This document shows positions 20,958-40,321 of a DNA stretch of 64,000 nucleotides, in pieces. The translations under genes and the position numbers were made by a program. The notes below the pieces were generated by a model, which did no database searches, was not told the DNA's origin, and saw nothing but the letters and a program-made list of their open reading frames with translations. This DNA is from Mobula hypostoma (lineage: Eukaryota): the NCBI RefSeq assembly GCF_963921235.1, contig NC_086101.1:46934001-46998000 (forward strand), read 5' to 3'. Numbering within the stretch: position 1 is the first letter of the stretch; every line of letters starts with the position of its first letter.

Positions 20958-22501
20958 ACCCTTCATGATTTTATATTTCTGTAAAATCTCTTTAGCCAAA
21001 GGGTGGTGAATTATTCTCACAGATGGCTGTGGAGGCCAAGATGTTGGGTATATTTAAAGTGAAAATTGATAGGTTCTTAATTATCAAGGGCATCGAAGGT
21101 TTCAGAGAGAAAGCAGCAGAATGGAGTTCAGAGGGATTTGGCATATCATCTGAAACATTGACAAACTTTTTTAGATCGTCCGTTATCAAGGTTCCTCACC
21201 ACCCAGGCAATGATGTCTTCTTGCTGCTGCCATCAGGAAGAAGTCAAAGGAGCCTCAGGACCCGCACCACCAGGTTCACCCACAGTTATTACCCCTCAAC
21301 TATCAGGCTCTTGAAACCAGAGGGGATAACTTGACTCACCCCACCACTGAACTGTTTCCACAATCTATGGACTCACTTTCAAGGATTCTTCATCTCACGT
21401 TGTCAATATTTATTGTTTATTTATTTATTTATTTTTTTCTGTTTTGTATTTGCAGTTTGTTTTTTTTTGCACATTGGTTATTCGTTCAAACTGTTAGGTG
21501 CAGTCTATTACTGATTCTATTGTGCTTCTTGTATGTACTGTGAATACCTGCAAGAAAATGAATCTTAGAGTTATATATGACATGTATGTATGTCAATAAA
21601 TTTACTTTGAACTTTTGAATTGTGAAATCAGCCACCATGGAATGGAGGAACAGACTCAAAGGTGCAGAATAGCTTATTTCTGCTTCTATGTCTCCCCTGA
21701 ATCTCATACATTCCAAGGTATAAAGTCCCAGCCTTCTCCATATAACTCAAGTCCTGATAACATCCTCGTACATTTCAGCAAGTCCAGCAGCATCTATGGA
21801 CGGGAACAAGTAATCCATGTTTTGGGCCAAGACCAAGAAACAGTGCTGTGAAGGCCCACAGCCCAAAACGTCAACTATTTGTTCCATCCCATAGATGCTG
21901 CCTGACTTGATGAGGTCCTCCAGCATTTTGTGTTGCTCAAAATTTGTAGTATCTCCAGAATCTCTTGCATTCTTGTTAAGTCTTTGCACTCCTCAGTTTA
22001 ATGATGCCTTTTCTTTTATTGAGCTGACCCAAACTAGACACAAAACTCCAAAAGCAGTTTCACCACAATAATAAACCAAAACAGGATAGGAAAAGGCAGT
22101 TTTAAAGTGAGAGGGGAAAGCTCTAAAAGGGAATTCAAGGGTAACTTTTCCACAGAGGGTAGTGGGTATATCCAATGAGCTGCCAGGGGAGACTGTACCA
22201 ACACATACACAATGCTGGAGGAACTCTGCGTGTTAGATACTGTCTACGGTTGAGTTTTCGGGCCGAGCTCTTCATTAAAATGCTTTAGATGTAGGTAAAA
22301 TTACAACTTAAAACTGGACAGGCACATGGATAGGAAAGGTTTAGAGGGAATACGGGCAAATGGGACTGGCTTGCATGGACATCTTTGGTCAGCATGGATC
22401 AGTTGGCATAGACCTGTTTTACTGCAGTTTGACTGCCCGCCTTCAGCCTCCTCACCATTCCTCGATCCCCACACCCCCTCGCACAGCAACGCCATCTCTA
22501 C

Positions 22502-22723
22502 CTGATGAAGCACCACGTTGGTGTCGGGAAGTAGGAAGTGGGGCTGCGGGCACAACTCGCTACTGCTGCAGGGCTCGTCGCTGAGGGAGGCCGAGGCCTG
22601 GGCCTCGCACTCCTCGCACGGCCGCCAGCCGCACAAGATATCATCGCGCAGGTAATGCTCGCGCACGATCTTCAGTACTCCCCCAGACCGCGTCTTCTTA
22701 ACGAAGGTTTTGGTTTTTAACAT
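22502..22723 (-). CDS. DIS3: DIS3/RRP44 exosome nuclease, coding exon 1 (CR3 Cys motif, start of PIN domain)
   Basis: ATG at 22723; MLKTKTFVKKTRSGGVLKIVREHYLRDDILCG...LPDTNVVLHQ is the DIS3 N-terminus; GT donor at 22501-22500; 222 nt. Confidence 0.97.
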
Positions 22724-25195: not shown

Positions 25196-25784
25196 TGTCG
25201 TGGTTTCTCGTTTCTCACAAACGACAAGGAGGTGCAGAAAATCCGTCAAGATGTTTTAAACTTTAATTTGCAAATCAAAGCTGAGGCAATCAGAAAGCTA
25301 GTAGCTGACTGCCCATCGAGGCTTGTATACAGCATTTTTTATAGCAATTTCCTATCTTAGCTACATTATCATATCCAGTCGGCCTGTGATTACGTATCAT
25401 CAATATATCCGCTCTCGACTTTCCACTATTGTTTTACTCCCCAACTTAATTATGTCCTAGTTTACATTTTAGACCAGGTGTCCTCTCATCCCTAACCACA
25501 GTTATTTCTTAATTAGTCATGCGTTGACATACCGCCCCATATTTCATCACCTTACTCGCCACCGTTACCTTTCTACTTGGTTTCATTCTAGTTCTCTTCA
25601 TGAATTAATAGTGATTAGGTCAAAAGTCATGGCTACATAGTGAATACCCTCTATTCAGCTAGCAGTGGTTACATAGTAAATATAGAAAATACAATGTGTG
25701 CATTTGAGTAAATACTGAAATACTGTTGAGTAAATACTGTAATACATAGAAAATATAATGTATGCGTTTACATTTTCCAATATA
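25196..25784 (-). repeat. ERV 3' LTR (589 bp)
   Basis: About 18 substitutions and no indels versus the 5' LTR (manual count); TATAAA 25343-25338, ATTAAA 25267-25262; preceded by purine tract AAAGGGAGA (25794-25786). Confidence 0.95.
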
Positions 25785-26080
25785 ATCTCCCTTTGAGACC
25801 CACAGGGTCTCATACAGAGAGAGAGAGAGAGAGGACTGACAGTCTATGCACAAAAGCTCAAATAAAGCCACGCATTTACTCCCAAATTTGGGTTAAACTA
25901 TAGTTTCCTGCGCTTAAGACTCAAAGTGTTCTCTCCCTACCTCCCTAGGCCGCTGAGCCAAAAACCCGTCCCTTCGTATCTGAGACAGGGAAAAAGACTC
26001 AGGAGCCTTCACAGCCTAATCCCCACATATTTCATCTCTCTCCTGTTCGTCTTGCGTGTCTCGTAAACTGTACGAATACA

Positions 26081-27650
26081 TCATCGGTCCTCCTTCTCCA
26101 TAGGGCTCGACCCAACAATTTCCAGGAGTGTCGGAAACCGTTTCATTGCAGCACGCACTACAAGCGACTTGAGGCATGGAAGAAAACAGCACAGAATGAC
26201 CGCACAGCTTAGCAATACAATACCAATGGTTACTGCAATCTTGGTCAGCCATGCTCCCCATCCTCCTAGTTTACTGTTTAACCAGTCAAAGAACTGGTGT
26301 CCGAACCCTGCATTTTGTTTAACTTCTTTTCTTAGATTTTTCAGTTTATTCATTGCTCTGGTAAACGATCCCTCCGGACTAGTGTTATTCGGTATAAAAG
26401 TACAGCACTGTTCCCCAAACATTACACAAACTCCTCCTTTTCCTGCCAATAGCCAGTCTAGTACCTGTCTATTTTGCCACGCCACTCTACTGGTTGCACC
26501 TAGCTGCTGTCCCAAGGCCTCTAGTGCATCATCAGTGTAGTTAATGAATCTCTGTTGATTATAATATATATAATTTATCCATTCAACATTTTTGCTAACC
26601 CCTATTATAGGTATAAGTGCTTCCCAGCCCGCAGCAATCTCATTTCTTGCCTTAAACTCGTTAGGTATACCCCTCGGCTGTCCTATACTGTCGATCCGAA
26701 TTGTCAGGTCAGGCTCATATTTTCTCTTCCTCTGTTTTAGTGTCTGTTGCCTCGAGGTGTCAAACTGTATTTCAGGGGATACTACAACTTCTTGAATCAG
26801 CATACACGCGTACATGTACCCGCCCTATTAAGGGGAAGCGTGGATCTCAGACCCCCCTCCTGTCCACACAGCCACCAGGTATCTGCTAACGGGATGGTCT
26901 GGGAGTTCAGTGCATCCTCGGGCAGAGGGGTACCTGTCTGGTATCTTCGGCCTGGGGTTACATCCCAAATTTTAACACAGTTGCTGCTGAAATGCCCAAC
27001 CGAGAGGTCACCCGTCCGTGTGAAACATTCATAACTCAAATGTTCCTGCATTTTAAGCTTTCCCAAAGTGGATGTCTGGCTTCTTTTATTTATAGCCCAC
27101 GGTCTGCTATAATTACAGTTAGAGGCAAGCTTGTTTTGATCAAACTGCGAGGAAGCCTGGTATAACATACACCAATAAGGGCACATTGGTGTGTTATCAA
27201 TACATTTCTGATAACAAGGATCCATCCTGCTACAAATTCCCATACTGCAGGTCTTGACTACACTTGGACACTGCCGCGCACACTGCCCCCTCCGCTCCTT
27301 TTGCCATTGCGTGCAGGTGGAGGGGTTATAAGGCATGGGGGCTACGTATTGCACTGGACTTGCCCTTGAGCATAGATAACAATTCTGTCTCTTCATCATC
27401 CCTGCTGTATAATTTGCCCATTGGTACCACATGTTCTGGTACCATGGTACGAAGGTAACCATTGTGCTCTTCTTACTCCTTTCTCTCAGGTTTTGTGGGA
27501 TCCTAACAGTCCCATGCCATGCCACATCTGCCAAATTAATGGTCTCCAAATCTGCACAAGAGTATCTAAGTGTATTATCTCGTGGGGCAGGACTGGTCGC
27601 CCTCAAGTCATCACCATTATCTGAAAGAGTACTACCATCCATAACCCCAT
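26081..27650 (-). pseudogene. env: ERV env, gamma-type (SU CxxC, furin-like site, ISD, CX6CC, TM helix), frameshifted
   Basis: CYLC in SU; apparent 1-nt deletion near 26803; KQRKRK; WQNRQVLDWLLAGKGGVCVMFGEQCC; hydrophobic anchor IAVTIGIVLLSCAVILCC; the 5' start is uncertain. Confidence 0.9.
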
Positions 27651-27769
27651 CCTTAGGGTCTTCTGGCCTGTCCTCAGGACCAAAAATTTCCCTTATTACT
27701 TGGTCAAGTTCCTGCAGTTCAGTGTCAGCTTCTTGTTGCTCTTGTCTGTCCCTTACTGTTTGTTCCTCT

Positions 27770-30700
27770 TCACCACTTACCTCGGGTGGCCCACCTGACT
27801 ACCTGGGGGATTGCTCTAGTGCAGTGATTGAGATGATACCAGGTGGAGCGTCCTTCCACTTGAACTGCGGTGGGTGATGCTTTGGTTACTGTAAAGGGCC
27901 CTTCCCTTCTGGGTTTGTTCCACTTTCTTCGAAACACTGGCACGTAGACCTGATCGCCTGGCTGGATTGGTCCTTCCCCTTGATCGATCTCTGGTTCTTT
28001 CTGTTTTTCCTGTGCATAAATAGACTTATGTATCATAGTTAATTGCCGAATGTATTGTTTTAATTCCAATTCCAATTGTTCCAAACTAGGCCCTTTATAT
28101 GGTCCTCTCCACTGGGTCACTGGCATGGGCCTTCCGGTTAGCATTTCATGCGGTGTTAGATACGTCATCCGATTAGTCTGCATGCGGTAACTCATTAATG
28201 CTAATGGTAGTGCATCGACCCAGTTGAGTTTAGGATCTGCACAGATTTTGTTTAGTTTGGCTTTTAAGGTCCCGTTAATTCTTTCCACTATACCCTGCGA
28301 CTGAGGGTGATACACACATCCAAATCTCTGCTTTATTCTCAGTGCTTGCAGTATTAACTTGACCACTTTTTGGATGAAAGCTGAACCATTGTCTGAGCTA
28401 ATTTCTGTTGGTATCCCAAACCTTGGGATCACTTCGTTTGTCAGGAATTTCACCTCTGTTCCTGCCCCTTGATCTTTCGAGGGTACTGCCTCTACCCATC
28501 TGCTGAATCTGTTGATTACCACCAATATGTATCTTTTCCCTCTTACTGTTTTTATCATGTCTACATAGTCAATCACTAGGTGTTTAAATGGCCCTTCAGG
28601 TACGGGTATATGACCTATTGGGGTTGTAATTCCTTTCCGAACATTATTCTGCGCGCATACCTCGCACTGTGACAACACATGGTCTACTGAAGCCTGTAAA
28701 TAAGGCGACCAAAATCCATCCTTTTTTATTTTCCTTATTACTTCCCCCCTTGCACAATGATCCACCCCATGTGCTTCCGAGATCAGGATAGTCAGTAAAG
28801 GGGTGGGAGCTACCAGTAGGCCATCTTCCGTGGTCCATAGGCCTTCTGGGTTCTGCTTGGCCCCCCTTCGTCTCCACAGTGTTTGTTCTGCCAAAGTTGC
28901 CTTTCCCTGTATTTCAATTAGGTCCTCTACCATAGGTCCCGGCTCTAGACTTACCTGGGGTGCAATAACAGCGGATGTACACCCAGACGCTTTCCTGGCT
29001 GCTTCATCTGCAGCTTGATTTCCCTTTGTTACTGCATCGTTTCCTTTTTTATGTGCCTGGCATTTTACTATAGCCAGTGCTTTAGGTTTCATCAGCGCTT
29101 TTATTAGATCTAAAATCTGCTGACAGTGCTGTATGGGATCTCCATTGCTCTTTTTAAAACCTCTCTGTTTCCACACTGCCCCAAACAAATGACACACTCC
29201 ATGAGCATATGCTGAATCTGTATAGATATCAACTTTCTCTCCTTCCATCATTTCACACGCTGCCGTCAAAGCTCTGATTTCCGCTAGCTGGACGGAGCAC
29301 GGTTGGGGACATGCCTCTATTCTGATGACCTTGAAGTCTGCCTGATCCTGTTGCAGTACTGAGAACCCTGCGTGATTACCATCGTGATCTCTGTAACAAG
29401 AGCCATCTACAAACAGGACCTTTTTATCTTCGTCCTCTAATGGTGCTGATCGTAAATCTGCTCTCAATTTAGTGAATGTCATTGTTTTCCTTACACAAAC
29501 ATGGGGTTCTCCTTCATACCCTAAAGGGACATAATCACTTATGTTACTGGTGGTGCACCTCTGTATAGTTATATCTGGAAATGTCAGTAGCATCTGATAT
29601 GCTGCTATCCTGGCTGGTGTCAACACGAATTTCCCTCTTTCCAGTAATTCTGCTACCTTGTGGTGTGTGTACAGAATCACAGGATAGCCCATGGTTACGG
29701 ATGATGCCTTTTCATATGCATAGTATAGTGCCGCCAATCCCTGGTAACAAGGTGGGTACCTCTGAGCCACCTCATCCAGTTTCGCACTGTAGTATGCTAT
29801 TGGTTGCTTTGCTTTACCTGTGCCAGTCTCCTGCGTTAGAACTGCAGCGGCATAGCCTTCCTGTCGGTTGGATACGTACAGATGAAAGGCCTTCTCGTAG
29901 TCAGGCAAAGCTAATGCTGGGGCTGACTGCAATTCCTGCTTTATAGTATTGAAGGCTACTTCCGCCTCCTCATTCCACTGTAGATTACTCCTCAAGCTTG
30001 TATGTCCTGCTTCCTTCATTATTTTCCTTAGTGGCGTTACAATTTCAGCATATTCCCCAATCCAATCTGAACTATATCCTGTCAGTCCCAGAAATGTCGT
30101 CATCGGCCCCACTGTCTGGGGCTTGGGAGCTTTAGTTATAGCTTCAATTTGATCCGGCGCTATCGCCTTCGCTCCCTTGGATATCACTCTACCTAGGTAT
30201 TCTACCTGTTGCTTGCAAAATTGCAGCTTCTTTCTAGACACCTTATGCCCTCCATGCGCCAGTCTCTCTAAAAGGGTTATGGTATCCTGTTCACACTGTC
30301 CCTCACTTTCGGAGCAAATCAACAAATCATACACATACTGTATCAATGTACTTTCCAACGATATGCCCTCTAGGTCCGCCTTTAACTCTTGATTAAATAC
30401 GTGTGGTGAATATTTAAATCCTTGAGGCATTCTAGTGTAGGTATACTGGTTGTCTCTGTATGTAAATGCAAATAGGTACTGACACTGATCTGCCAGGTGA
30501 ACACTGAAAAAAGCCGAACACAAATCAATCACTGAAAAATAGTCTGCCTCTGGTGGAACATTAGTCAAGAGCGTGTGTGGGTTGGGAACTACCGCTGGCC
30601 AGTCCTCCACTACCTCATTCACCGCTCGCAGGTCATGCACCAGTCTCCATTTAGACTTATCCCCTTTAAGGACAGGTAACAGTGGGGTATTACATGGGCT

Positions 30701-31135
30701 GTCTGTCCTTTTGAGTACTTCTGCCTCCAGTAGCCCTTGTATCGTTGGCGCTATTCCCTCTTCTGCCTCTAGTTTCAAAGGATATTGTGGTCTCCTGGGT
30801 GGAACTGCTCCCTTTTTCAGCTTTATTTCTACTGGACTGGCTATTCTTATTTTCCCTACATCCGTGTCATGTTGTGACCACAGAATAGATGGTAACCTAT
30901 CCAGCTTGTTATCTCTCTGCTGGCCTTCCTCCTTTCCCAATAACGTCAGGTGTGGCTGGGGAGTTACTTCGACCTCCTTTGCTGCTCCTACTATATCTAT
31001 ATCCACCTCTATTTTAAAGTAGTCGTTGTCTCCCGATACCCACACCTGTGGCATAATTTTCCTCCACACCGCTACGGTTCCAGCGTGCTTTACTAAGGGT
31101 CCTAGGTCTTTAGACTGATGTCCCTCATTTACTAG
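27770..31135 (-). pseudogene. pol: ERV pol: RT, tether, RNase H, integrase with GPF motif; RT catalytic motif mutated
   Basis: WRLVHDLR, DLCSAFF, MPQGF, YVYD (YVDD expected) at 30337-30326; RNase H FVDGS/TDSAY; IN HHCC and D-D-E (IDYV, SDNG, IVER). Confidence 0.95.
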
Positions 31136-31842
31136 GCTTCCAGTCTCCTGTACCATTTCTCCAAGAAGGTATTCCACCTGACTTGCAGGGCTGCCCCTTG
31201 TCTCCCAATTATTATAGCTTCTCCTCTTAGGTGCTGCCGGTTGCCTGCCTCCTTGTGCCATCTCTCCTTTAGCTCTTTGTTCTGAGTTTCGTCAAAAATC
31301 ACTGTGCAATGTAATTCGGATTTGGGTGCTACAGCCTGGGGCAATATCGCCTGCACGCCCTTTTTCCATTTTTCCCAGGTTTCCCAGATCTGATCTTCTA
31401 CGTCTCCTATCCAGAAGACATTAGCTTTCTTGACTTCCCGCACTAGTAATTGAGCATTTACTCTTTCCACACTCAACCCACTTCTGGTACATTCTGATTT
31501 TAATTCTAGTTGTAATAGGGCATCTCTGCCTAGCAAATTCACCGGAGTTCCTTTGGACACTAATATCGGCAAAACTATTCCTTTGCTGCCCATCCTTAAT
31601 CTCACTGGAGCTATACATTGTGTCAACTGTGTTTTTCCCGAGAACCCTACAGTCTTAATAAATTTTCCTGACATGGGAAGGTGAAGGGCATACTGCGGCT
31701 GTACGCAAGTATACGTGGCTCCAGTATCTATCAACATTGGTGTCAGCTGCCCTTCTAACACAACCTGAACAATGGGTTCCTCCTCTGCCTCCCTTGTTAT
31801 CACTGGGTAGTGTCCCTTCCCACCTGGGTTCTCTGGGCACCC
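31132..31842 (-). pseudogene. pro: ERV protease plus N-half of a 2H-phosphoesterase-like domain, in frame with gag after TAG
   Basis: LIDTGATYT active site (31728-31717), NLLGRD motif; then LHCT (HCT at 31311-31303); frameshift near 31135. Confidence 0.9.
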
Positions 31843-34026
31843 CTAATGTCTTGCATAGGGGTTCACGGGTCCATTCGGCCCTGCGGGGTCTGGTCCTTGG
31901 CTAGACTGTGGTTCCCCTCTCATTGGTTCCCGCTGGTATGTGACGGCCCATGGCCTAAGTGGGCAGTCCCTTCTTATGTGTCCTGGCTGGTTACATCCCC
32001 AGCACAGTCTCTGTATCTCTCTTCCCCCCTGTTTCCTTACTGGTCCTTCCTGCCCATAACCTCTCTGCCCCCCTCCTTGGGATTTCCAGTCCTGTCTGGG
32101 CTGCTGTTTAAATTTATCCTGTCCCTGATAGGGCATTTGTGGAAAAGCACCCCCAAAGACGTTTATTATTGGCATGGGGTTTTCTGGGCTCTGTCTTACG
32201 GCACGACTGGTCCCTCCATATAATGACATTTCATTCATTTCAACGGCTGCGCTTAAATCAGTCATTGCTGGCAGCATCTTCTTGCCTTTTTCTTTTTCCT
32301 TTTTAAGTTCTTCAAGCTGCATTTGTATCAGCTTTCTTTGCACTTCTTCTTGCTGCTCAGTCAACTTTCGTTTGTCTTTTCGATATTTTTCGACCGCATA
32401 GACTACGTGGTCCCTGAATTCCTGTGGGGTCATTGACATCAATCCAACCACTTCCTCAAGTTTAGGCTTAACTTGGGAAGGCATCGCATCCAAAACAGCA
32501 TTTCGGAACATCCAGGTCATAAACGGGTTGCCTTCCACCTCTTGTTCAGTTTCCAGTCTCCACCTTTTCAACTGATTTTCTATATAGGCTGCTGGATTTT
32601 CAGTGTCTCCCAGTGGATCCCCTTTCATGGCTTTGGGGTCCATTTTGGGTGGATAGAGCTCCCTGAGGGCCCCCCATACCCTCTGCCTCACTGTGTCAAA
32701 TCTGGCCCCGTCAATCAGTGTGCTGTCCGCATTCTGTATGCCAGCCACTTCCATCAACTCTTGTAGTTTGGAGGTTCCCATCAGCCTTATCAGCAGCGCC
32801 TTTAAATCTCCCATAGCCCACATTCGTCCCGTGGTTTCTTCCTCAAAGGCCCTAATCCACTTTCCTGCACCCTCATGTAGGCTGGGCAGGGTGTTTTTCA
32901 GCCCTTCCAGGTCCTGGGATCCCCAAGGAATATACTGTACTTGTCCCAATCCTTTTACTAACACCGGCATCATTCTCCCTTTCCTTTCCCACGTCTCCTG
33001 ACTCTCCTCCTCGCCTGACTCCCCATCTGTTTCTGAGCACGTTTTCACTGGCTGCCACATGATTCTTTCCGGGGTTTCCTTTCTCCCTTGGCCTCCTCGT
33101 GGAGTTCTTTCTTTCTGCCTTGAGCTAGCATTTGCTTTGGCCCATGCGAAATCCTCAAACTCTCATTGGAAATTCAGTCTCCGCTGTAATTCCCTAATCT
33201 CTCCCTCTGTTTCTAATATCTGCCTTTTCACTCTCTCTCTTTCCCCTTCAAGGCTCCTGTCTCCTATCTTCTGCCTACATTCTCTCATACCCTCTCCTTC
33301 GCTACTTAACTCTTGCTCTCCGGACAAGTCTCCTTCTGCTCTGGCCTGTTCAGTTCCGTGCCCATATAACAAAGATTTCTCTTCATCCCTTTTTGCTTTT
33401 AATTCCTGTAACCCTTTGATCTCTTCTACTATTTCCCTTCTCTCCTGTTCTATCTTTGCCCTGTCTTCTTCTATTACCTTCCGTAGTTCCTCCTGCTCCT
33501 TTTCGTGATTCTTTCTTTCCTCCTCAGTATCCCAGACTTTAATTTCTCCATTTAGATCCACTCTTCCTGTTATCATCGGACACTGCTTAAGGGTTTCTTT
33601 CTCATAATAGGGAGGAGGTTTTTTTACGTCTTTCAGGTCTGGGTATAGAGCCGAAGCCGGCTCCCTGGTATGCTTCTCCTTCTCTTTATCAGACTGCTCG
33701 TTTCGTTTCTCAGTGTCTTTTTTACTTACTATTAATATACCTCCCGTCTTTCTTAACCTTTCTCCCTCCATCCTAAAGAGTTTTAACACTTCCATTTTTT
33801 GTTCCCTTTTTCCTTCTCTTTTCTTAGATTTATCTTTGGGTTTGTGATTTTTAATTAGCGCTTCCATTTCCTCACATAAGCTTACATCAAATGTTCCTTC
33901 TCTTGGCCATTTCGTGACCAGTTCTTTAGTTTTTTTTTCCCATTTTTCTGAAATTTCCGCGATCTTACCTTGACACACCGGGAATTTTCTGCTCAACATT
34001 TCTACTGCTGTTCCTTTCTCTGTCAT
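31843..34026 (-). pseudogene. gag: ERV gag (~727 codons, one premature in-frame TGA at 33165-33163)
   Basis: ORFs 33163..34026 and 31843..33060 are in the same frame, joined across a single TGA; LYPDL and PPPY late motifs, CA-like region, one CCHC knuckle CWGCNQPGHIRRDC. Confidence 0.92.
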
Positions 34027-34576
34027 GTTGTTCTCTTTTTCCCTTTTTCTATTATGGTATTTTTAGAATCTCATGACTTGCCTATTTAATAATATTATTT
34101 TTCTAACTCTATTTCTATGCCTAGCCTTATGGTTTATCTCACCAGCGTCTAAATTATCTATTAAACTATCTTTATCTCTTATTACGTTCTGCCCGTGCAG
34201 ACCCCTACTTAGGACAGTTTCCACAGAACCTTTTCCTTTTACACCTCGCCTCCTTTCACCCCTTATACTTCTTAAGGCGGTATTCACGAGGATTTTTAAT
34301 TCTTCTTCCCTGCCTGTTCAGCCCTCCGTTTCATGCGAAGAGGTATCCACAGGGACTTACCAACACCACGAGGAATTTTCTTACTTAATTTATTATTACT
34401 TTATTCGAACTTACCCCCACTGCCGTGCTCTTGATTAATCCTCTGAGCCTCCTTTTATCCCCAATTCTGCCAGATTCTTTGGATCGGAGAGACCCTTCGG
34501 CAGTTGCTTCACACTTCTGAGTCCCCGAGACCTCCCAGAACCAACAGAATTCTTATTCCGAATTATCACAAAAAGC

Positions 34577-34698: not shown

Positions 34699-35287
34699 TG
34701 TCATGGTTTCTCGTTTCTCACAAACGACAAGGAGGTGCAGAAAATCCTTCAAGAAGTTTTAAACTTTAATTTGCAAATCAAAGCTGAGACAATCAGAAAG
34801 GTAGTTGCTGACTGCCCATCGAGGCTTGTATACAGCATTTTTTATAGCAATTTCCTATCTTAGCTACATTATCATATCCAGTTGGCCTGTGATTACATAT
34901 CATCAATATATCCGCTCTCGACTTTCCACTATTGTTTTACTCCCCAACTTAATTATGTCCTAGTTTACATTTTAGACCAGGTGTCCTCTCATCCCTAACC
35001 ACAGTTATTTCTTAATTAGTCTTGTGTTGACATACTGCCACATATTTCATCACCTTACTCGCCACCGTTATCTTTCTACTTGGTTTCATTCTAGTTCTCT
35101 TCATGAATTAATAGTGATTAGGTCAAAAGTCATGGCTACATAGTGAATACCCTCTATTCAGCTAGCAGTGGTTACATAGTAAATATAAAAGATGCAATAT
35201 GTGCATTTGAGTAAATACTGAAATACTGTTGAGTAAATACTGTAATACATAGAAAATATAATGTATGCATTTACATTTTCCAATATA
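34699..35287 (-). repeat. ERV 5' LTR (589 bp)
   Basis: Direct repeat of 25196-25784; minus-strand TATAAA at 34846-34841 and ATTAAA at 34770-34765; U5 ends in CA next to the PBS. The U3 end is uncertain by ~3 nt. Confidence 0.95.
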
Positions 35288-36075
35288 ATCAAAGAACAGA
35301 TTACATTCACCAGCTATGTAAATGCTGCTGCAACAAGGGCAGGCAAGCTGAGAAATTGGTGCAAATTTTTAATCTTCTAACTCCACAATGGCCATCTGGC
35401 AAACACAAAGGTCATCAGGAGTGTGTTAGAAAATATGTCTGAGAATGTGCCACCAGTAACAGTGGTCAACATGGACTTGTTGGGCCAAAGGGTTGTACTC
35501 CAAAAGACTTCCTTTACGGCAACTAGGAAAGGGCAAAAATGTTGATCTTTAAAGCTACATCTTTTGAGTTAAGAGGATGGATACTCCCCTGGGCTGGTCT
35601 AAAATGTTTGGTAATAACTGAAGTCAATTTATTGGTTTTGATTTTTGTGTTGTTCTCCTCCTTGACAATATACCACTTCCTTTAAAACTTTGCTATTTGC
35701 GTGTACTTTCTTTTCTGAGTCATCAAGGGGTGATTAGTTTGACTGAATTTAACTTTTGAGGAAGATGTTGTGTTTTGTAACTTCAAAAACTAATTGAAAG
35801 AAAAACATAGATGTCAGGAAACAGGTCTACTTAGTTCATTTTTTAAGGGAAGCATGCGCATATGATGTTGCATAATAATGTATGCCATTCACGTGCTTTT
35901 ACATATAATCTAATGAATTATATAAACAAAGAATGCTTAACCAAACAAATGTATTTACAATATTACTCTAATATTACTAAAATACTCAATACACTATAGA
36001 AGAGAGGGCTCAAAATTCTTTGTTTTGTATTTAGAATCCAGCGCCTTCATCCTGTAAGTTATCCAGAGGAAAACC

Positions 36076-36327
36076 ATGTCTCGAAAGAACTGTAAAGATG
36101 AGAACAAAGCCCATGTATCCAGCTCCTTTGAGTCTGAGGATATTAGTTTGGAAACAACTGTGCCAACCGATGATGTATCTTCATCAGAAGAGAGGGAAGC
36201 TTCAACCAAAGTCACGAAGCAACTCATTGAGAGGAAGGAGCTTCTTCACAACTTACAGCTGTTGAAGATTGAGTTATCGCAAAAAAATTTGGTGATTGAC
36301 AACCTGAAAGTAGAATATCTCACGAAA
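36076..36327 (+). CDS. PIBF1: PIBF1 (CEP90) first coding exon; exon acceptor at 36033-36034, 5'UTR part 36035-36075
   Basis: [41 protein letters not shown]...[40 protein letters not shown] then GTAAGT; recognisable PIBF1 N-terminus; conserved head-to-head synteny with DIS3. Confidence 0.96.
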
Positions 36328-37456
36328 GTAAGTTGTTAAGTTCCACCTTCGAGACTATTTCATTGCTTTGGATTGTGATTTGTTAAGGATAAATAAAAAT
36401 CAGAAAAATGGTATTCTGAAAAAAATTAGAAAAAACTTGAAACACTTGTCAGGTCAAGAAGATTTCTGTTCAAAGATCATTCTTCAAAACTAGAGCAGTG
36501 AGCCGATAAGTGGTTTCAAGTTGCAGATAGGCTGGGAGAGGGATGGAAAAGGCAAAGGAAATAAAATATGAAACTTTCCTTAAAGAATAATAAAGACAGC
36601 TGGTGCTATGTTTATAGGGAAGCATAAAAATAGGATAAAGAATAGGAGGGTGTGTTGAAAGTTGTGAGATGACATGAGGTGGTCCGTAGATGGAGTCTAA
36701 ACACTGGCATTAGCTACTCAGGCCAAATTTCCTTTCCATATAACTGTTAAAGCCCATTCTATCAAATGTTGAGTGCATAAAGCAATTGCCATAACTGTTT
36801 TTATATTGAATACTGAGAAGCTGCCTTTTTGGGGGGAAAAGCTTCAGAATAGTAACAAAAACACTCTGTGTTGCTTTGGATTTCCAACATCTGCAGATTT
36901 TCCTGTGTTTGCAATTTTTCTTTCTCCTTAGTTTAAATAGAAAAATAAATTTAGTTATGTGGCTATTTTCTATGTCCCTAGATATCTTATAGAAAGGGTA
37001 TTCAAAGTGACAAAGGTTCAATTCCCATCGCTGTCTATAAGGAGTTTCTACATTATCACCATGACCATGGTGTTTCCTCCGGGTGGTCTGGTTTCCTCCC
37101 ACGTTCCAAAGACATAGAGTTAGTAAGTTAATTGGCCGCATGGGTGTAACTGAGCGATGTGGGCTGAAGGACGTGTCACCGTGCTGTATCTTTATATGAG
37201 TGATTGGTTTCCAACCATGCTTTATTAATTCAGTTATGCTGTTGGGTATTTAATACTCTGCAATAAGTGTTTCTTTAATTACATCATACAATTGAGTATT
37301 TCACTGTTTTTCTGTTTAAATTAAAAATTCAGTTGATTGATAAGTTAGGCTTGTTGAAAGAGCGAATGGATTTGTCTTGAGAACATTCTAGCAAGAGCGC
37401 AGGGAAAAAGAATGGGGACCCATTTTCTACAGAGAGGCCGGGATTGAAGAAGGAAA

Positions 37457-38370
37457 ATGGAAATGGACACCAAACATAGTGAAATGCTCACAGAACCCAT
37501 TTGGAAGGACAGGTACTGCTGTCGGAAAATCCTCATGCACACAAAGTTCTATTCAGAATGTTCAAAGGAACATCTAAACAAGCCTGATGCATTTTGGAAA
37601 CAAGTCCTGTGGACTGATGAAGTTAAAATAGAACTTTTTGGCTGCAATGAGCAAAGGTATGTTTGGAGAAAAAAGGGTGCAGAAGTTCATCTAAAAAACC
37701 CCTCTCTAACTGTTAAGCACAGGGGATGGATTGATCATGCTTTGGGCTTGTGTTGCAGCCGGTGGCACGGGGAACATTTACTGGTAGAGGGAAGAATGAA
37801 TTCAATTAAATACCAGCAAATTCTGGAAGCAAGCATCACACCATCTGTAAAAAAGCTGAAGATGAAAAGAGAGTGGCTTCTACAACAGGATAATGAACCT
37901 AAACACACCTCAAAATCCACAATGGACTGCCGCAAGAGGTGCAAGCTGATGGTTTTGCCATGGCCCTCACAGTCCCCTGACCCAAACATCATCGAAAATC
38001 TGTGGATAGACTTCAAAAGAGCAGTGCATGCAAGACGACCCAAGAATCTTACAGAACTAGAAGCCTTTTGCAAGGAAGAATGGGTGAAAATCCCCCAAAC
38101 AAGAATTGCAAGACTCTTTGCTGGCTACAAAAAGCGTTTACAAGTTATGATACTTGCCAAAGGGGGCATTACTAAGTATTGCCATGCAGGGTGCGCAAGC
38201 ACTTGCTTTGGGCCCTTTTCCTTTTTTGTTATCTTGAAACTGTAAAAGATGGAAATAAAAAAGTTTTCTTAAAGTATTAAAGAAATGTGTCATCTTTAAC
38301 TTTATGCCTTTTGGAAATCAGTTCATCTTTTACTCACTTAGCTATTCACAGTAACAGAAATTTTGACCAG
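37457..38370 (+). mobile_element. Tc1-like transposase fragment with truncated right end
   Basis: VLWTDEVKIELF, QQDNEPKH, WPSQSPDPNIIENLW = Tc1-type DDE catalytic domain; abuts an RTE 3' end. Confidence 0.9.
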
Positions 38371-40321
38371 GCGTCTCCAGTTGTCCATCGAAATCCGATG
38401 ACAATGTCCACTCCTTTAACGGTGAGATCTTTGATGACTATACAGTTCTATCCTGGACCCGGGACAGGTATATGTGGTAGTGGGTAGTACTGGTGGCAAC
38501 CATGGCTGCATTTCTCCAGGCTCTCTTCTGCTGTCTTCTAGTTGTTCTTTCCATTTCCAGAATATGAATCCTGTCCCTACACAGCTGTCGCCAAGTGGTA
38601 TGGTCAGCAGCAACATCCTCCAGGTCCTCGGGTCTGATCTTGCACTTCCTTAAAGCATTCTTCATCTGATCCTTATAGCGCTTCTTTGGCCCTCCAGCTG
38701 AGCATTGCCCATGATGTAGCTGGCCGTATAACACTCTGCGGGGTAGCCGACTTGGGGCATCCTTATCACGTGCCCCAGCCACTGCAGCTGACGCTGGATG
38801 ACCATGGCCTCAATACTTCTGCAGTTGGTTTTTTCAAGTATTTCAGTGTGAGGCACCCGCTCACGCCAGGTAATTCCCAGGATGCGCTGGAGGCAGCTCA
38901 TGTGGAAGCGCTCCAAGGACTTGATGTGATGGCTGTAGGTTACCCAAGCTTCACAGCTATAAAGGAGGGTGGTGACACAGACCGCTTGGTATATGGCGAC
39001 CTTTGTGGAGGGAGGAAGGCTTCTGTTCTGAAAGACTCTATACCGAAGTCTCCCAAAGGCAGCAGATGCCTGTTTAATGTGGCTCTGGATGTTGTCGTCA
39101 ATGCCGCTATCCTCAGAGAGAATGCTCCCCAGATATTTGAAAGATGGCACCACTGACAACTTTTCATCACCAACAGTGAAGGCAGGTAGAGTGGTTGGGA
39201 TACTGGTACTCCAATGGCAAACCACTTCTGTCTTGGTGGTATTGACAGTCAGCCCCATCCTGCTGTATGCTCTCACCACCACAGCAAGGACAGTCTGAAG
39301 ATCCTCTGGAGTATGGGCCACAAGAGCGCAGTCGTCGGCATATTGCAGCTCCAGGACTCGCTCTCTACGGAGTTTGTGGTTGCATGGAGCCTCCTGATGT
39401 CAAAGTGGTTGCTATCTAATCTGACGTCCACTGCCACACCACTGTTGTCTTCAATCTCGTTGTGGAGAAGCTTGGTAACACACAAGAGGAAGATGTTAAA
39501 GAGCACTGGCCCTAGCGCACACACCCCTGCCTCACCCCTGTGCGTACAAGGAAGGGCTCGAACTCTTGTCCTCTTATGGTCACCCGAGCAGTCATCCCAT
39601 CGTGGAACTGGCAGAGGATGTTAACAAATTTATTGGGACAGCCAAACCTGAGGAGGACATCCCATAAGAGCTCTCTTTGCACAGTGTCGAATGCTTTGGA
39701 GAAGTCGACAAAGGCCATAAACAGGTCCTGATGTTGCTCCCGGCACTTTTCCTGAAGCTGCCGGGCTATGAAGATCATGTCGATCATGCTCCTGTTCTTC
39801 CTAAATCCATACTGCAATTCAGGCAGCATTGACTCGGTGATGTTGCTGATGAGTTTCTGAAGCATCACCTTAGCCAGGACCTTTCCAGCAACAGAAAGGA
39901 ATGATATGCCTCGACTATTGCCACAGATGGCCTTGTCACCCTTGTTCTTATAAATGACAACGATGTTTGCATTTCTCTATAGCTGTGGGATGTTCTCTTC
40001 AGTCCAGGCCTTGGTGATGAACTGGTTAAGGGAATGGACAGCTGATGGAACATCCTGGAAGGTTGGTGGTAGACTGAGGTCGTGGATAGGAGGAAGTTCA
40101 GGCAGTTCATCCAGGATGGTGGGGTCTTCGTCAGAGTCCTGATTAAGCAGGGTGTTAAGATGCTCAGCCCACCTCAGCAGAATTGTATTCTGATTCTTTA
40201 GAAGTGTAAGACCATCTGCTGTTTTCAGGGGAGTAACGCATCGATTTATTGGCGCAGATGGTTTTGACAGCGTTCTAAAAATTATGCACGTCATTATTAT
40301 CGGCAAAGGACTGGATTTCAT
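38371..40321 (-). mobile_element. 5'-truncated, frameshifted RTE-clade LINE
   Basis: FVDFSKAFDTV, TGVRQGC, LQYADDCAL and FKYLGS distributed over several frames. Confidence 0.92.

What the first reader, a model, noticed from the sequence alone, without database searches (positions are those of the whole stretch)
30940..31430. Retrovirus carries a 2H-phosphoesterase (CNPase-like) domain between protease and RT
Seen: about 170 extra residues separate the protease (NLLGRD) from RT: ...PKSELHCTVIFDE...LRGEAIIIGRQGAALQV...EKWYRRLEA / LVNEGHQSKDLGPLVK. Known: LHCT is the first HxT motif of vertebrate CNPase, followed by the same beta-hairpin pattern. From memory, CNPase-like domains have been noted in some teleost ERV polyproteins (ZFERV-type), and coronavirus ns2 and rotavirus VP3 2H enzymes degrade 2-5A. 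Inference: the second HxT (PH.TL) should lie exactly at the frameshift near 31135 and was removed by a small deletion; a PHLTL at 30955-30941 is an alternative candidate. A virion-packaged cyclic-nucleotide or 2-5A phosphodiesterase in a probable chondrichthyan retrovirus would be a candidate innate-immunity antagonist or RNA-end-processing enzyme. Its function is unknown.
Basis: partly seen in the sequence, partly recalled or inferred. Interest (0 to 1): 0.78.

Follow-up and report, generated by a model that had tools for sequence, protein, structure and literature searches.

The report
CNPase-like enzyme inside a fish retrovirus
A dead endogenous retrovirus, likely of a ray, carries between its protease and reverse transcriptase a conserved domain predicted to fold like the host enzyme CNPase, broken in this copy by a 19-base deletion; such domains are already reported in fish retroviruses, and their likely job of opening cyclic phosphates on RNA is untested.

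Summary
A dead provirus (minus strand, 25.2-35.3 kb) has about 165 extra residues between protease and RT. All 29 sister copies fetched hold 19 more bases at 31135. PHLTL is not the motif. A model of an unaltered sister domain (pLDDT 92) matches mouse CNPase at Z 16.4; the next fold scores 9.6, viral 2-5A and cGAMP phosphodiesterases 6-8. Both histidines are invariant in 21 of 21 homologues from rays and bony fish, and the domain is as constrained as RT (pN/pS 0.45 against 0.46-0.50). Most likely it is a virion-packaged enzyme that opens 2',3'-cyclic phosphates (inferred, about 0.55); cGAMP or 2-5A breakdown is the main rival (about 0.3). It is not new: two reviews report CNPase/2H domains in fish retroviruses, and this scan found the same thing twice on other DNA. 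I found no functional test. Extra lead: the same fold matches the Env proteins of walleye retroviruses.

The parts
30962..31425 (-). CNPase-like 2H phosphoesterase domain of Pol, broken in this copy
   Evidence: bounds from the confident part of the model of sister copy L007
31300..31311 (-). first H-x-T-x motif (HCTV)
   Evidence: His kept in 21 of 21 homologues
31134..31136 (-). site of a 19-nt deletion private to this copy; it removes the second H-x-T motif and shifts the frame
   Evidence: 29 of 29 sister copies hold 19 more bases here; the window copy is the only gap at the motif-2 columns
31079..31114 (-). SKDLGP helix after motif 2, in the register of CNPase helix alpha7; invariant Lys, Gly, Pro
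   Evidence: model helix 120-131; invariance; register against the host CNPase exon
30941..30955 (-). PHLTL: linker between the domain and RT, possibly a viral protease site; not a catalytic motif
   Evidence: His in 5 of 21 homologues; pLDDT 52 for the last block; Q/H-L/M pairs at both domain ends
31501..31785 (-). retroviral aspartyl protease, in frame after the gag stop codon
   Evidence: Pfam RVP E 1.8e-10; ORF map
27770..30880 (-). reverse transcriptase, RNase H, integrase; the RT YxDD motif is altered in this copy
   Evidence: Pfam RVT_1, RNase_H, rve, MLVIN_C
31843..34062 (-). gag with zinc knuckle, interrupted by a stop at 33163-33165
26081..27798 (-). env, in two frames
   Evidence: Pfam TLV_coat E 1.9e-11 on the downstream piece; ORF map
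34699..35291 (-). 5' LTR
   Evidence: 592 bp, 18 mismatches to the other LTR
25196..25787 (-). 3' LTR

Best explanation
This is a conserved two-histidine domain, predicted to fold like CNPase, that sits between protease and RT in the Pol of a fish-type retrovirus family and likely hydrolyses 2',3'-cyclic phosphates; this copy has lost its second catalytic motif. Shown: position, conservation, purifying selection, the deletion. Predicted: the fold. Inferred: it is made with Gag-Pol by read-through of the gag stop, packaged in the virion, cut free by the viral protease, and converts cyclic-phosphate RNA ends or 2',3'-cNMPs left by host RNases into 2'-phosphates. That would heal or silence broken RNA ends (genome, primer tRNA, cleavage products) during infection.
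For: Mouse CNPase Z 16.4, 165 residues aligned, 3.4 A; next chain 9.6. All 42 rows listed of the 50 Foldseek PDB hits at E <= 0.001 are CNPase or RICH. Both His invariant in 21 of 21 homologues at 25-75% identity, while none of the other five His of the query is; 85 of 94 distant representatives that cover both sites keep both. Aromatic residue five after His1 in 21 of 21 (mouse Phe235 position). Gly 15 after His2 in 21 of 21, in ungapped register with the host CNPase exon. Helix in the alpha7 position. pN/pS 0.45 (0.33-0.65) against 0.46 and 0.50 for two RT blocks. Q/H-L/M pair at the N-side in 16 of 19 and the C-side in 11 of 20, against 21 of 179 inner windows (the C-side window was wider).
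Against: No activity was measured. The link to CNPase is structural only: 11-15% identity, no Pfam CNPase match in 46 of 46 members scanned, profile hit to goldfish RICH only at E 1.4, hhalign to the host exon at probability 4.8%. The base-stacking Val of CNPase is replaced by Lys (21 of 21; Lys or Arg in 101 of 126 distant hits), so the substrate may differ. The nearest language-model neighbours are phage proteins with a tRNA-ligase CPD label on a minority of members. I cannot name a step of retroviral replication known to need this activity, and most retroviruses lack the domain (own knowledge).
Confidence: 0.55

Rival explanations
1. The domain destroys an immune second messenger, most plausibly 2'3'-cGAMP made when reverse transcripts are sensed, or 2-5A, and is carried in the virion for that purpose.
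For: Viral 2H enzymes repeatedly do this: 2-5A in RNA viruses, cGAMP in avian poxviruses and phage Acb1 (PMC11410667, passages). A weak Pfam Acb1 match in 4 of 4 sister copies (E 1e-4 to 5e-3). The invariant Lys could bind a second phosphate (inference). The host genome has OAS genes.
Against: The fold is far closer to CNPase (Z 16.4) than to MHV ns2 (7.9), Acb1 (7.7), rotavirus VP3 (7.1, 6.6), AKAP18 (7.0) or penguinpox cGAMP PDE (6.3). In CNPase, alpha7 blocks the side used by 2-5A substrates (PMC5283653). Acb1 scores are under the cut-off (22 against 27 bits) and appear in 1 of 46 wider homologues. Most homologues are from bony fish, which from memory lack OAS; my one search on that gave nothing usable.
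Confidence: 0.3
2. The domain acts by binding, for example as a decoy against host CNP, which is reported to block lentivirus assembly by binding Gag.
For: PMC5434554 (passage) states that CNPase inhibits assembly of primate lentiviruses by binding Gag. The host has a CNP gene.
Against: Strict conservation of both His and both Thr/Ser argues for catalysis. Surface identity to CNPase is only 11-15%.
Confidence: 0.07
3. It is a passenger or an artefact: a neutral insertion, or a frameshift from an assembly error.
For: This one copy is dead, and I could not see the deleted form in an independent run (one search lists no such joint).
Against: The domain sits at the same place in rays and several bony fish, is under purifying selection like RT, and has at least 153 clusters at 50% identity. 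A 19-base loss would be an unusual assembly error, and the copy has other lesions.
Confidence: 0.03

Closest known systems
CNPase/2H domains reported in fish retroviruses (Basta et al. 2009 as cited in PMC4977317; Mazumder et al. 2002 as cited in PMC9503650)
   Same: A 2H/CNPase-type domain encoded by epsilon-like fish retroviruses. Homologues labelled Hucho, Esox, Oryzias, Nothobranchius, Anguilla, Triplophysa and Dunckerocampus carry it at the same place.
   Different: Here in a likely ray, whereas PMC4977317 reports it under ray-finned fish. I could not read the two primary papers (not held), so I cannot say whether they place it between protease and RT.
Vertebrate CNPase / goldfish RICH catalytic domain (2xmi, 1woj, 2i3e)
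   Same: Best fold match, two H-x-T motifs, aromatic at His1+5, Gly at His2+15, helix after motif 2.
   Different: About 45 residues shorter, motifs 61 rather than 79 residues apart, 11-15% identity, Lys for Val321, no N-terminal P-loop domain, no Pfam CNPase match.
Viral immune-evasion 2H enzymes: MHV ns2, rotavirus VP3, avian poxvirus cGAMP PDE, phage Acb1
   Same: Same superfamily, virus-encoded.
   Different: Much weaker fold match (Z 6-8); from PMC5283653, helix alpha7 is missing in most 2H enzymes other than CNPase.
Walleye dermal sarcoma virus and WEHV1 Env (A4GTG3, Q9WHI8) and Q2VF30
   Same: Top predicted-structure matches, TM-score 0.76-0.85 over 173-188 columns.
   Different: For the walleye viruses the match is in Env, not Pol; 14-20% identity; the matched range was not given.

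Membership tests
2H phosphoesterase superfamily | two H-x-T/S-x motifs (in the virus family) | tested here: met
   25 of 29 sister copies; both His in 21 of 21 homologues and 85 of 94 distant ones
2H phosphoesterase superfamily | two motifs in this window's copy | tested here: not met
   the second motif lies in the 19-nt deletion
2H phosphoesterase superfamily | two-lobed 2H fold | tested here: met
   model pLDDT 92; the top of the list is 2H chains, best Z 16.4
2H phosphoesterase superfamily | His-dependent phosphodiester hydrolysis | not testable with these tools
   needs an assay
CNPase (PF05881) | closest fold is the CNPase catalytic domain | tested here: met
CNPase (PF05881) | helix alpha7 after motif 2, lining the active site | tested here: inconclusive
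   helix 120-131 is in the right sequence register, but I had no coordinates to superpose
CNPase (PF05881) | base sandwich Phe235 / Val321 | tested here: not met
   aromatic at the Phe position in 21 of 21, but Lys at the Val position in 21 of 21 (positions by offset from the His)
CNPase (PF05881) | Pfam profile match above cut-off | tested here: not met
   0 of 4 sister copies, 0 of 46 homologues
CNPase (PF05881) | N-terminal P-loop (PNK-like) domain | tested here: not met
   the domain is flanked by protease and RT
2',5'-phosphodiesterases (ns2, VP3, AKAP7) | open groove on the side that alpha7 blocks in CNPase | tested here: inconclusive
   Z 6.6-7.9 only; the helix suggests a closed side, not shown in 3D
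Acb1 / viral cGAMP phosphodiesterases | Pfam Acb1 match above cut-off | tested here: not met
   17-22 bits against 27; 1 of 46 members at any level
Acb1 / viral cGAMP phosphodiesterases | cGAMP hydrolysis | not testable with these tools
   needs an assay
tRNA-ligase CPD (PF08302) and related phage proteins | structural or profile match | tested here: inconclusive
   atlas score 0.96 to phage clusters with 11-31% of members labelled, recognition value under the tool's threshold; no such chain listed
class I (gamma/epsilon-like) endogenous retrovirus | LTR-gag-pro-pol-env-LTR, gag and pol in one frame, MLV-like RT and integrase end, gamma-type env | tested here: met
class I (gamma/epsilon-like) endogenous retrovirus | RT phylogeny with named epsilonretroviruses | not tested
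   no named reference sequences could be fetched (searches found none)

The most novel reading that the evidence does not exclude
Fish retroviruses captured a CNPase-type domain and turned it into a virion-borne nuclease for cGAMP or another immune nucleotide, which disarms sensing of reverse transcripts. The function mattered enough to be kept on the inside of the particle in two ways: in Pol here, and as the 170-residue cytoplasmic loop of Env in walleye viruses.
Probability: 0.2. Interest if true: 0.8.

Novelty: new member of a known kind. Interest (0 to 1): 0.36.

Why it matters
A large group of fish retroviruses keeps an extra enzyme in Pol under the same constraint as RT, and I found no test of what it does. 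The domain is small, models well and has many natural variants, so a substrate panel would settle it. A cyclic-phosphate activity would point to an unrecognised RNA-end step in retroviral infection and bear on the still unclear physiological substrate of CNPase. A cGAMP or 2-5A activity would be a new kind of retroviral immune antagonist. This particular copy is a dead fossil, and the domain's existence is already in print.

Tried and rejected
The two window halves alone gave no significant 2H match in Pfam (Acb1 at E 0.15). Sequence searches of the PDB found no significant 2H relative with a single sequence or profiles; one search was swamped by RT. No stand-alone homologue of similar length was found, which is no evidence on fusion. 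PHLTL and HQSK were rejected as the second motif. The first RT pN/pS (0.75) included misaligned copies; redid it after dropping 2 and 12 of 30 copies for the two RT blocks and 1 for protease. Protease came out at 0.82 (0.51-1.28), which is uninformative. No microhomology flanks the deletion. Two scans of viral contigs for relatives, meant to reach walleye viruses, found none. Sequencing runs: no RNA holder listed, so nothing on expression. Mazumder 2002 and Basta 2009 are not held. Ten literature searches showed no functional test of a retroviral 2H domain; I saw listings for most hits, and subscription journals are not covered. The supplement of PMC9503650 was cut when stored and showed no walleye entry. 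No fungal Trl1 CPD chain was listed, which does not exclude it. A shuffle control crashed and was not repeated.

Full report
Setting. The finding lies in a provirus on the minus strand. Its LTRs are at 34699-35291 and 25196-25787 (592 bp, 18 mismatches). Between them are gag (34062-31843, one internal stop), protease in frame right after the gag stop, RT, RNase H, integrase and a split env. A profile of related Pol proteins finds MLV-type RT first among solved structures, so this is a class I, epsilon-like element. The closest named homologues of the domain are labelled Mobula (92% over a third of it) and Hypanus (72-73%), then bony fish at 31-44%. The host is therefore likely a ray. The copy is dead: gag stop, the frameshift, an altered RT YxDD motif (19 of 30 copies show the usual form) and a split env.

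The observation. The quoted peptides are present. A search of the genome with 30900-31480 gave 41 matches, a lower bound; 29 sister loci were fetched. All 29 hold 19 more bases at 31135, and 16 read through the region without a stop. In them a second H-x-T motif lies 61 codons after the first, inside the stretch this copy lacks. By aligned column the first His is kept in 29 of 30 copies, the second in 27 of 30 (the window is the one gap), and all four motif residues in 25. PHLTL is not the motif: its His is kept in 5 of 21 homologues and it lies in the low-confidence tail.

What it is. I folded an unaltered sister domain (L007) with 20 homologues: pLDDT 92, pTM 0.86. Foldseek gave 50 PDB hits at E <= 0.001, and all 42 rows shown are CNPase or RICH (TM 0.57-0.68, 12-15% identity). 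The independent aligner gave mouse CNPase Z 16.4 over 165 residues at 3.4 A, then 9.6, 8.8 and 8.2 for microbial 2H enzymes, MHV ns2 7.9, Acb1 7.7, rotavirus VP3 7.1, AKAP18 7.0 and penguinpox cGAMP PDE 6.3. Sequence alone does not show the link: no Pfam CNPase match in 46 members, RICH at E 1.4, host exon at 4.8% probability. So it works like a CNPase by fold, but it is not a member of the CNPase family by profile, domain layout or the Val321 position.

It is under selection. Eleven of 178 positions are invariant in 21 homologues, both motif His among them and none of the other five His. Among 149 distant representatives, 85 of the 94 that cover both sites keep both His. By a rough motif test, of the 74 with enough flank on some side, 64 have protease upstream or RT downstream. 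Pairwise pN/pS among the 30 copies is 0.45 (0.33-0.65) for the domain and 0.46 and 0.50 for two RT blocks, after dropping 2 and 12 misaligned copies.

How it likely works. In CNPase one His activates water, the other protonates the 3'-oxygen, and a 2'-phosphate results; Phe235 and Val321 hold the base (PMC4643303, passages). Helix alpha7 is special to CNPase, positions the water and blocks the side that 2-5A enzymes use (PMC5283653, passages). The viral domain has an aromatic residue at the Phe position and Gly 15 after His2 in 21 of 21, in ungapped register with the host exon, and a helix at 120-131. I infer 2',3'-cyclic phosphate hydrolysis. Its place in Pol implies low-level synthesis by read-through and packaging (established for this class; own knowledge). 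A Q/H-L/M pair at both ends (16 of 19 and 11 of 20, against 21 of 179 inner windows) suggests release by the viral protease. The likely targets are RNA ends or 2',3'-cNMPs left by host RNases; PMC9503650 (passages) proposes this role for a subset of RNA-virus 2H domains. I put this at 0.55. The invariant Lys in place of Val321 leaves room for a larger substrate, other viral 2H enzymes cleave cGAMP or 2-5A (PMC11410667, passages), and the host has OAS genes, so the second-messenger rival stands at 0.3.

What is known. PMC4977317 (passage) says that some ray-finned fish ERVs encode a CNPase, citing Basta 2009. PMC9503650 lists 2H domains in certain retroviruses including walleye dermal sarcoma virus, citing Mazumder 2002. 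I could read neither primary paper. PMC11410667 has no occurrence of 'retro', 'fish' or 'CNPase' in its main text, and PMC8672886 none of 'CNPase' or 'phosphodiesterase'. Ten searches showed no functional test. This scan reported the same domain twice before, once in a shark; these are unchecked notes that agree with what I tested here.

One lead. Against predicted viral structures the best matches are Q2VF30 (unnamed in the output) and the Env proteins of WEHV1 and WDSV. PMC3185748 (passages) places a cytoplasmic loop of about 170 residues between two membrane helices of WDSV Env and names no enzyme there. If that loop is the match, the domain moved between Pol and Env while staying inside the particle. 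The range was not given, I could not fetch those sequences, and Mazumder 2002 may already say so.

Verdict. Real, correctly read by the first stage, a new member of a known but untested kind, in a dead copy. Interest 0.36.

Noticed in passing
(BFVD hits A4GTG3, Q9WHI8): The model matches Env of walleye dermal sarcoma virus and WEHV1 (E 4e-9, 4e-11; TM 0.76). PMC3185748 describes a cytoplasmic loop between membrane helices 850-874 and 1045-1069 of WDSV Env, about 170 residues, the size of this domain. The matched range was not given. PMC9503650 already names WDSV as having a 2H domain, without saying where.
   Followed up: partly
window 25196 and 35291: No target-site duplication is visible at the LTR ends, so the provirus may be a recombinant of two insertions; the 3% LTR divergence may then not date it.
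   Followed up: partly
window 22301-22723 (-) and 36058-36339 (+): Frames that from memory resemble the first exon of DIS3 and an exon of PIBF1; the provirus would lie near their shared promoter region. Pfam gave no match.
   Followed up: partly
L031-L034 (G000:C91): The host CNP catalytic exons occur twice, about 180 kb apart, with identical translation of the large exon; in one copy that exon lies upstream of the others. Duplication or assembly artefact.
   Followed up: no
L035-L037 (G000:C78) and C59: Three OAS-type genes in a cluster, one with a stop in the match, and a decayed copy elsewhere.
   Followed up: no
window 37448-38245 (+) and 38400-40300 (-): A DDE_3 transposase remnant (Pfam E 1e-12) and frames that look like a LINE reverse transcriptase (by eye only).
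   Followed up: partly
L026:2524-2606: A second 83-bp match to the end of the domain lies just downstream in this sister copy, a local duplication.
   Followed up: no
The nearest language-model neighbours are 150-160 aa phage proteins, so a non-vertebrate origin of the domain is not excluded.
   Followed up: no
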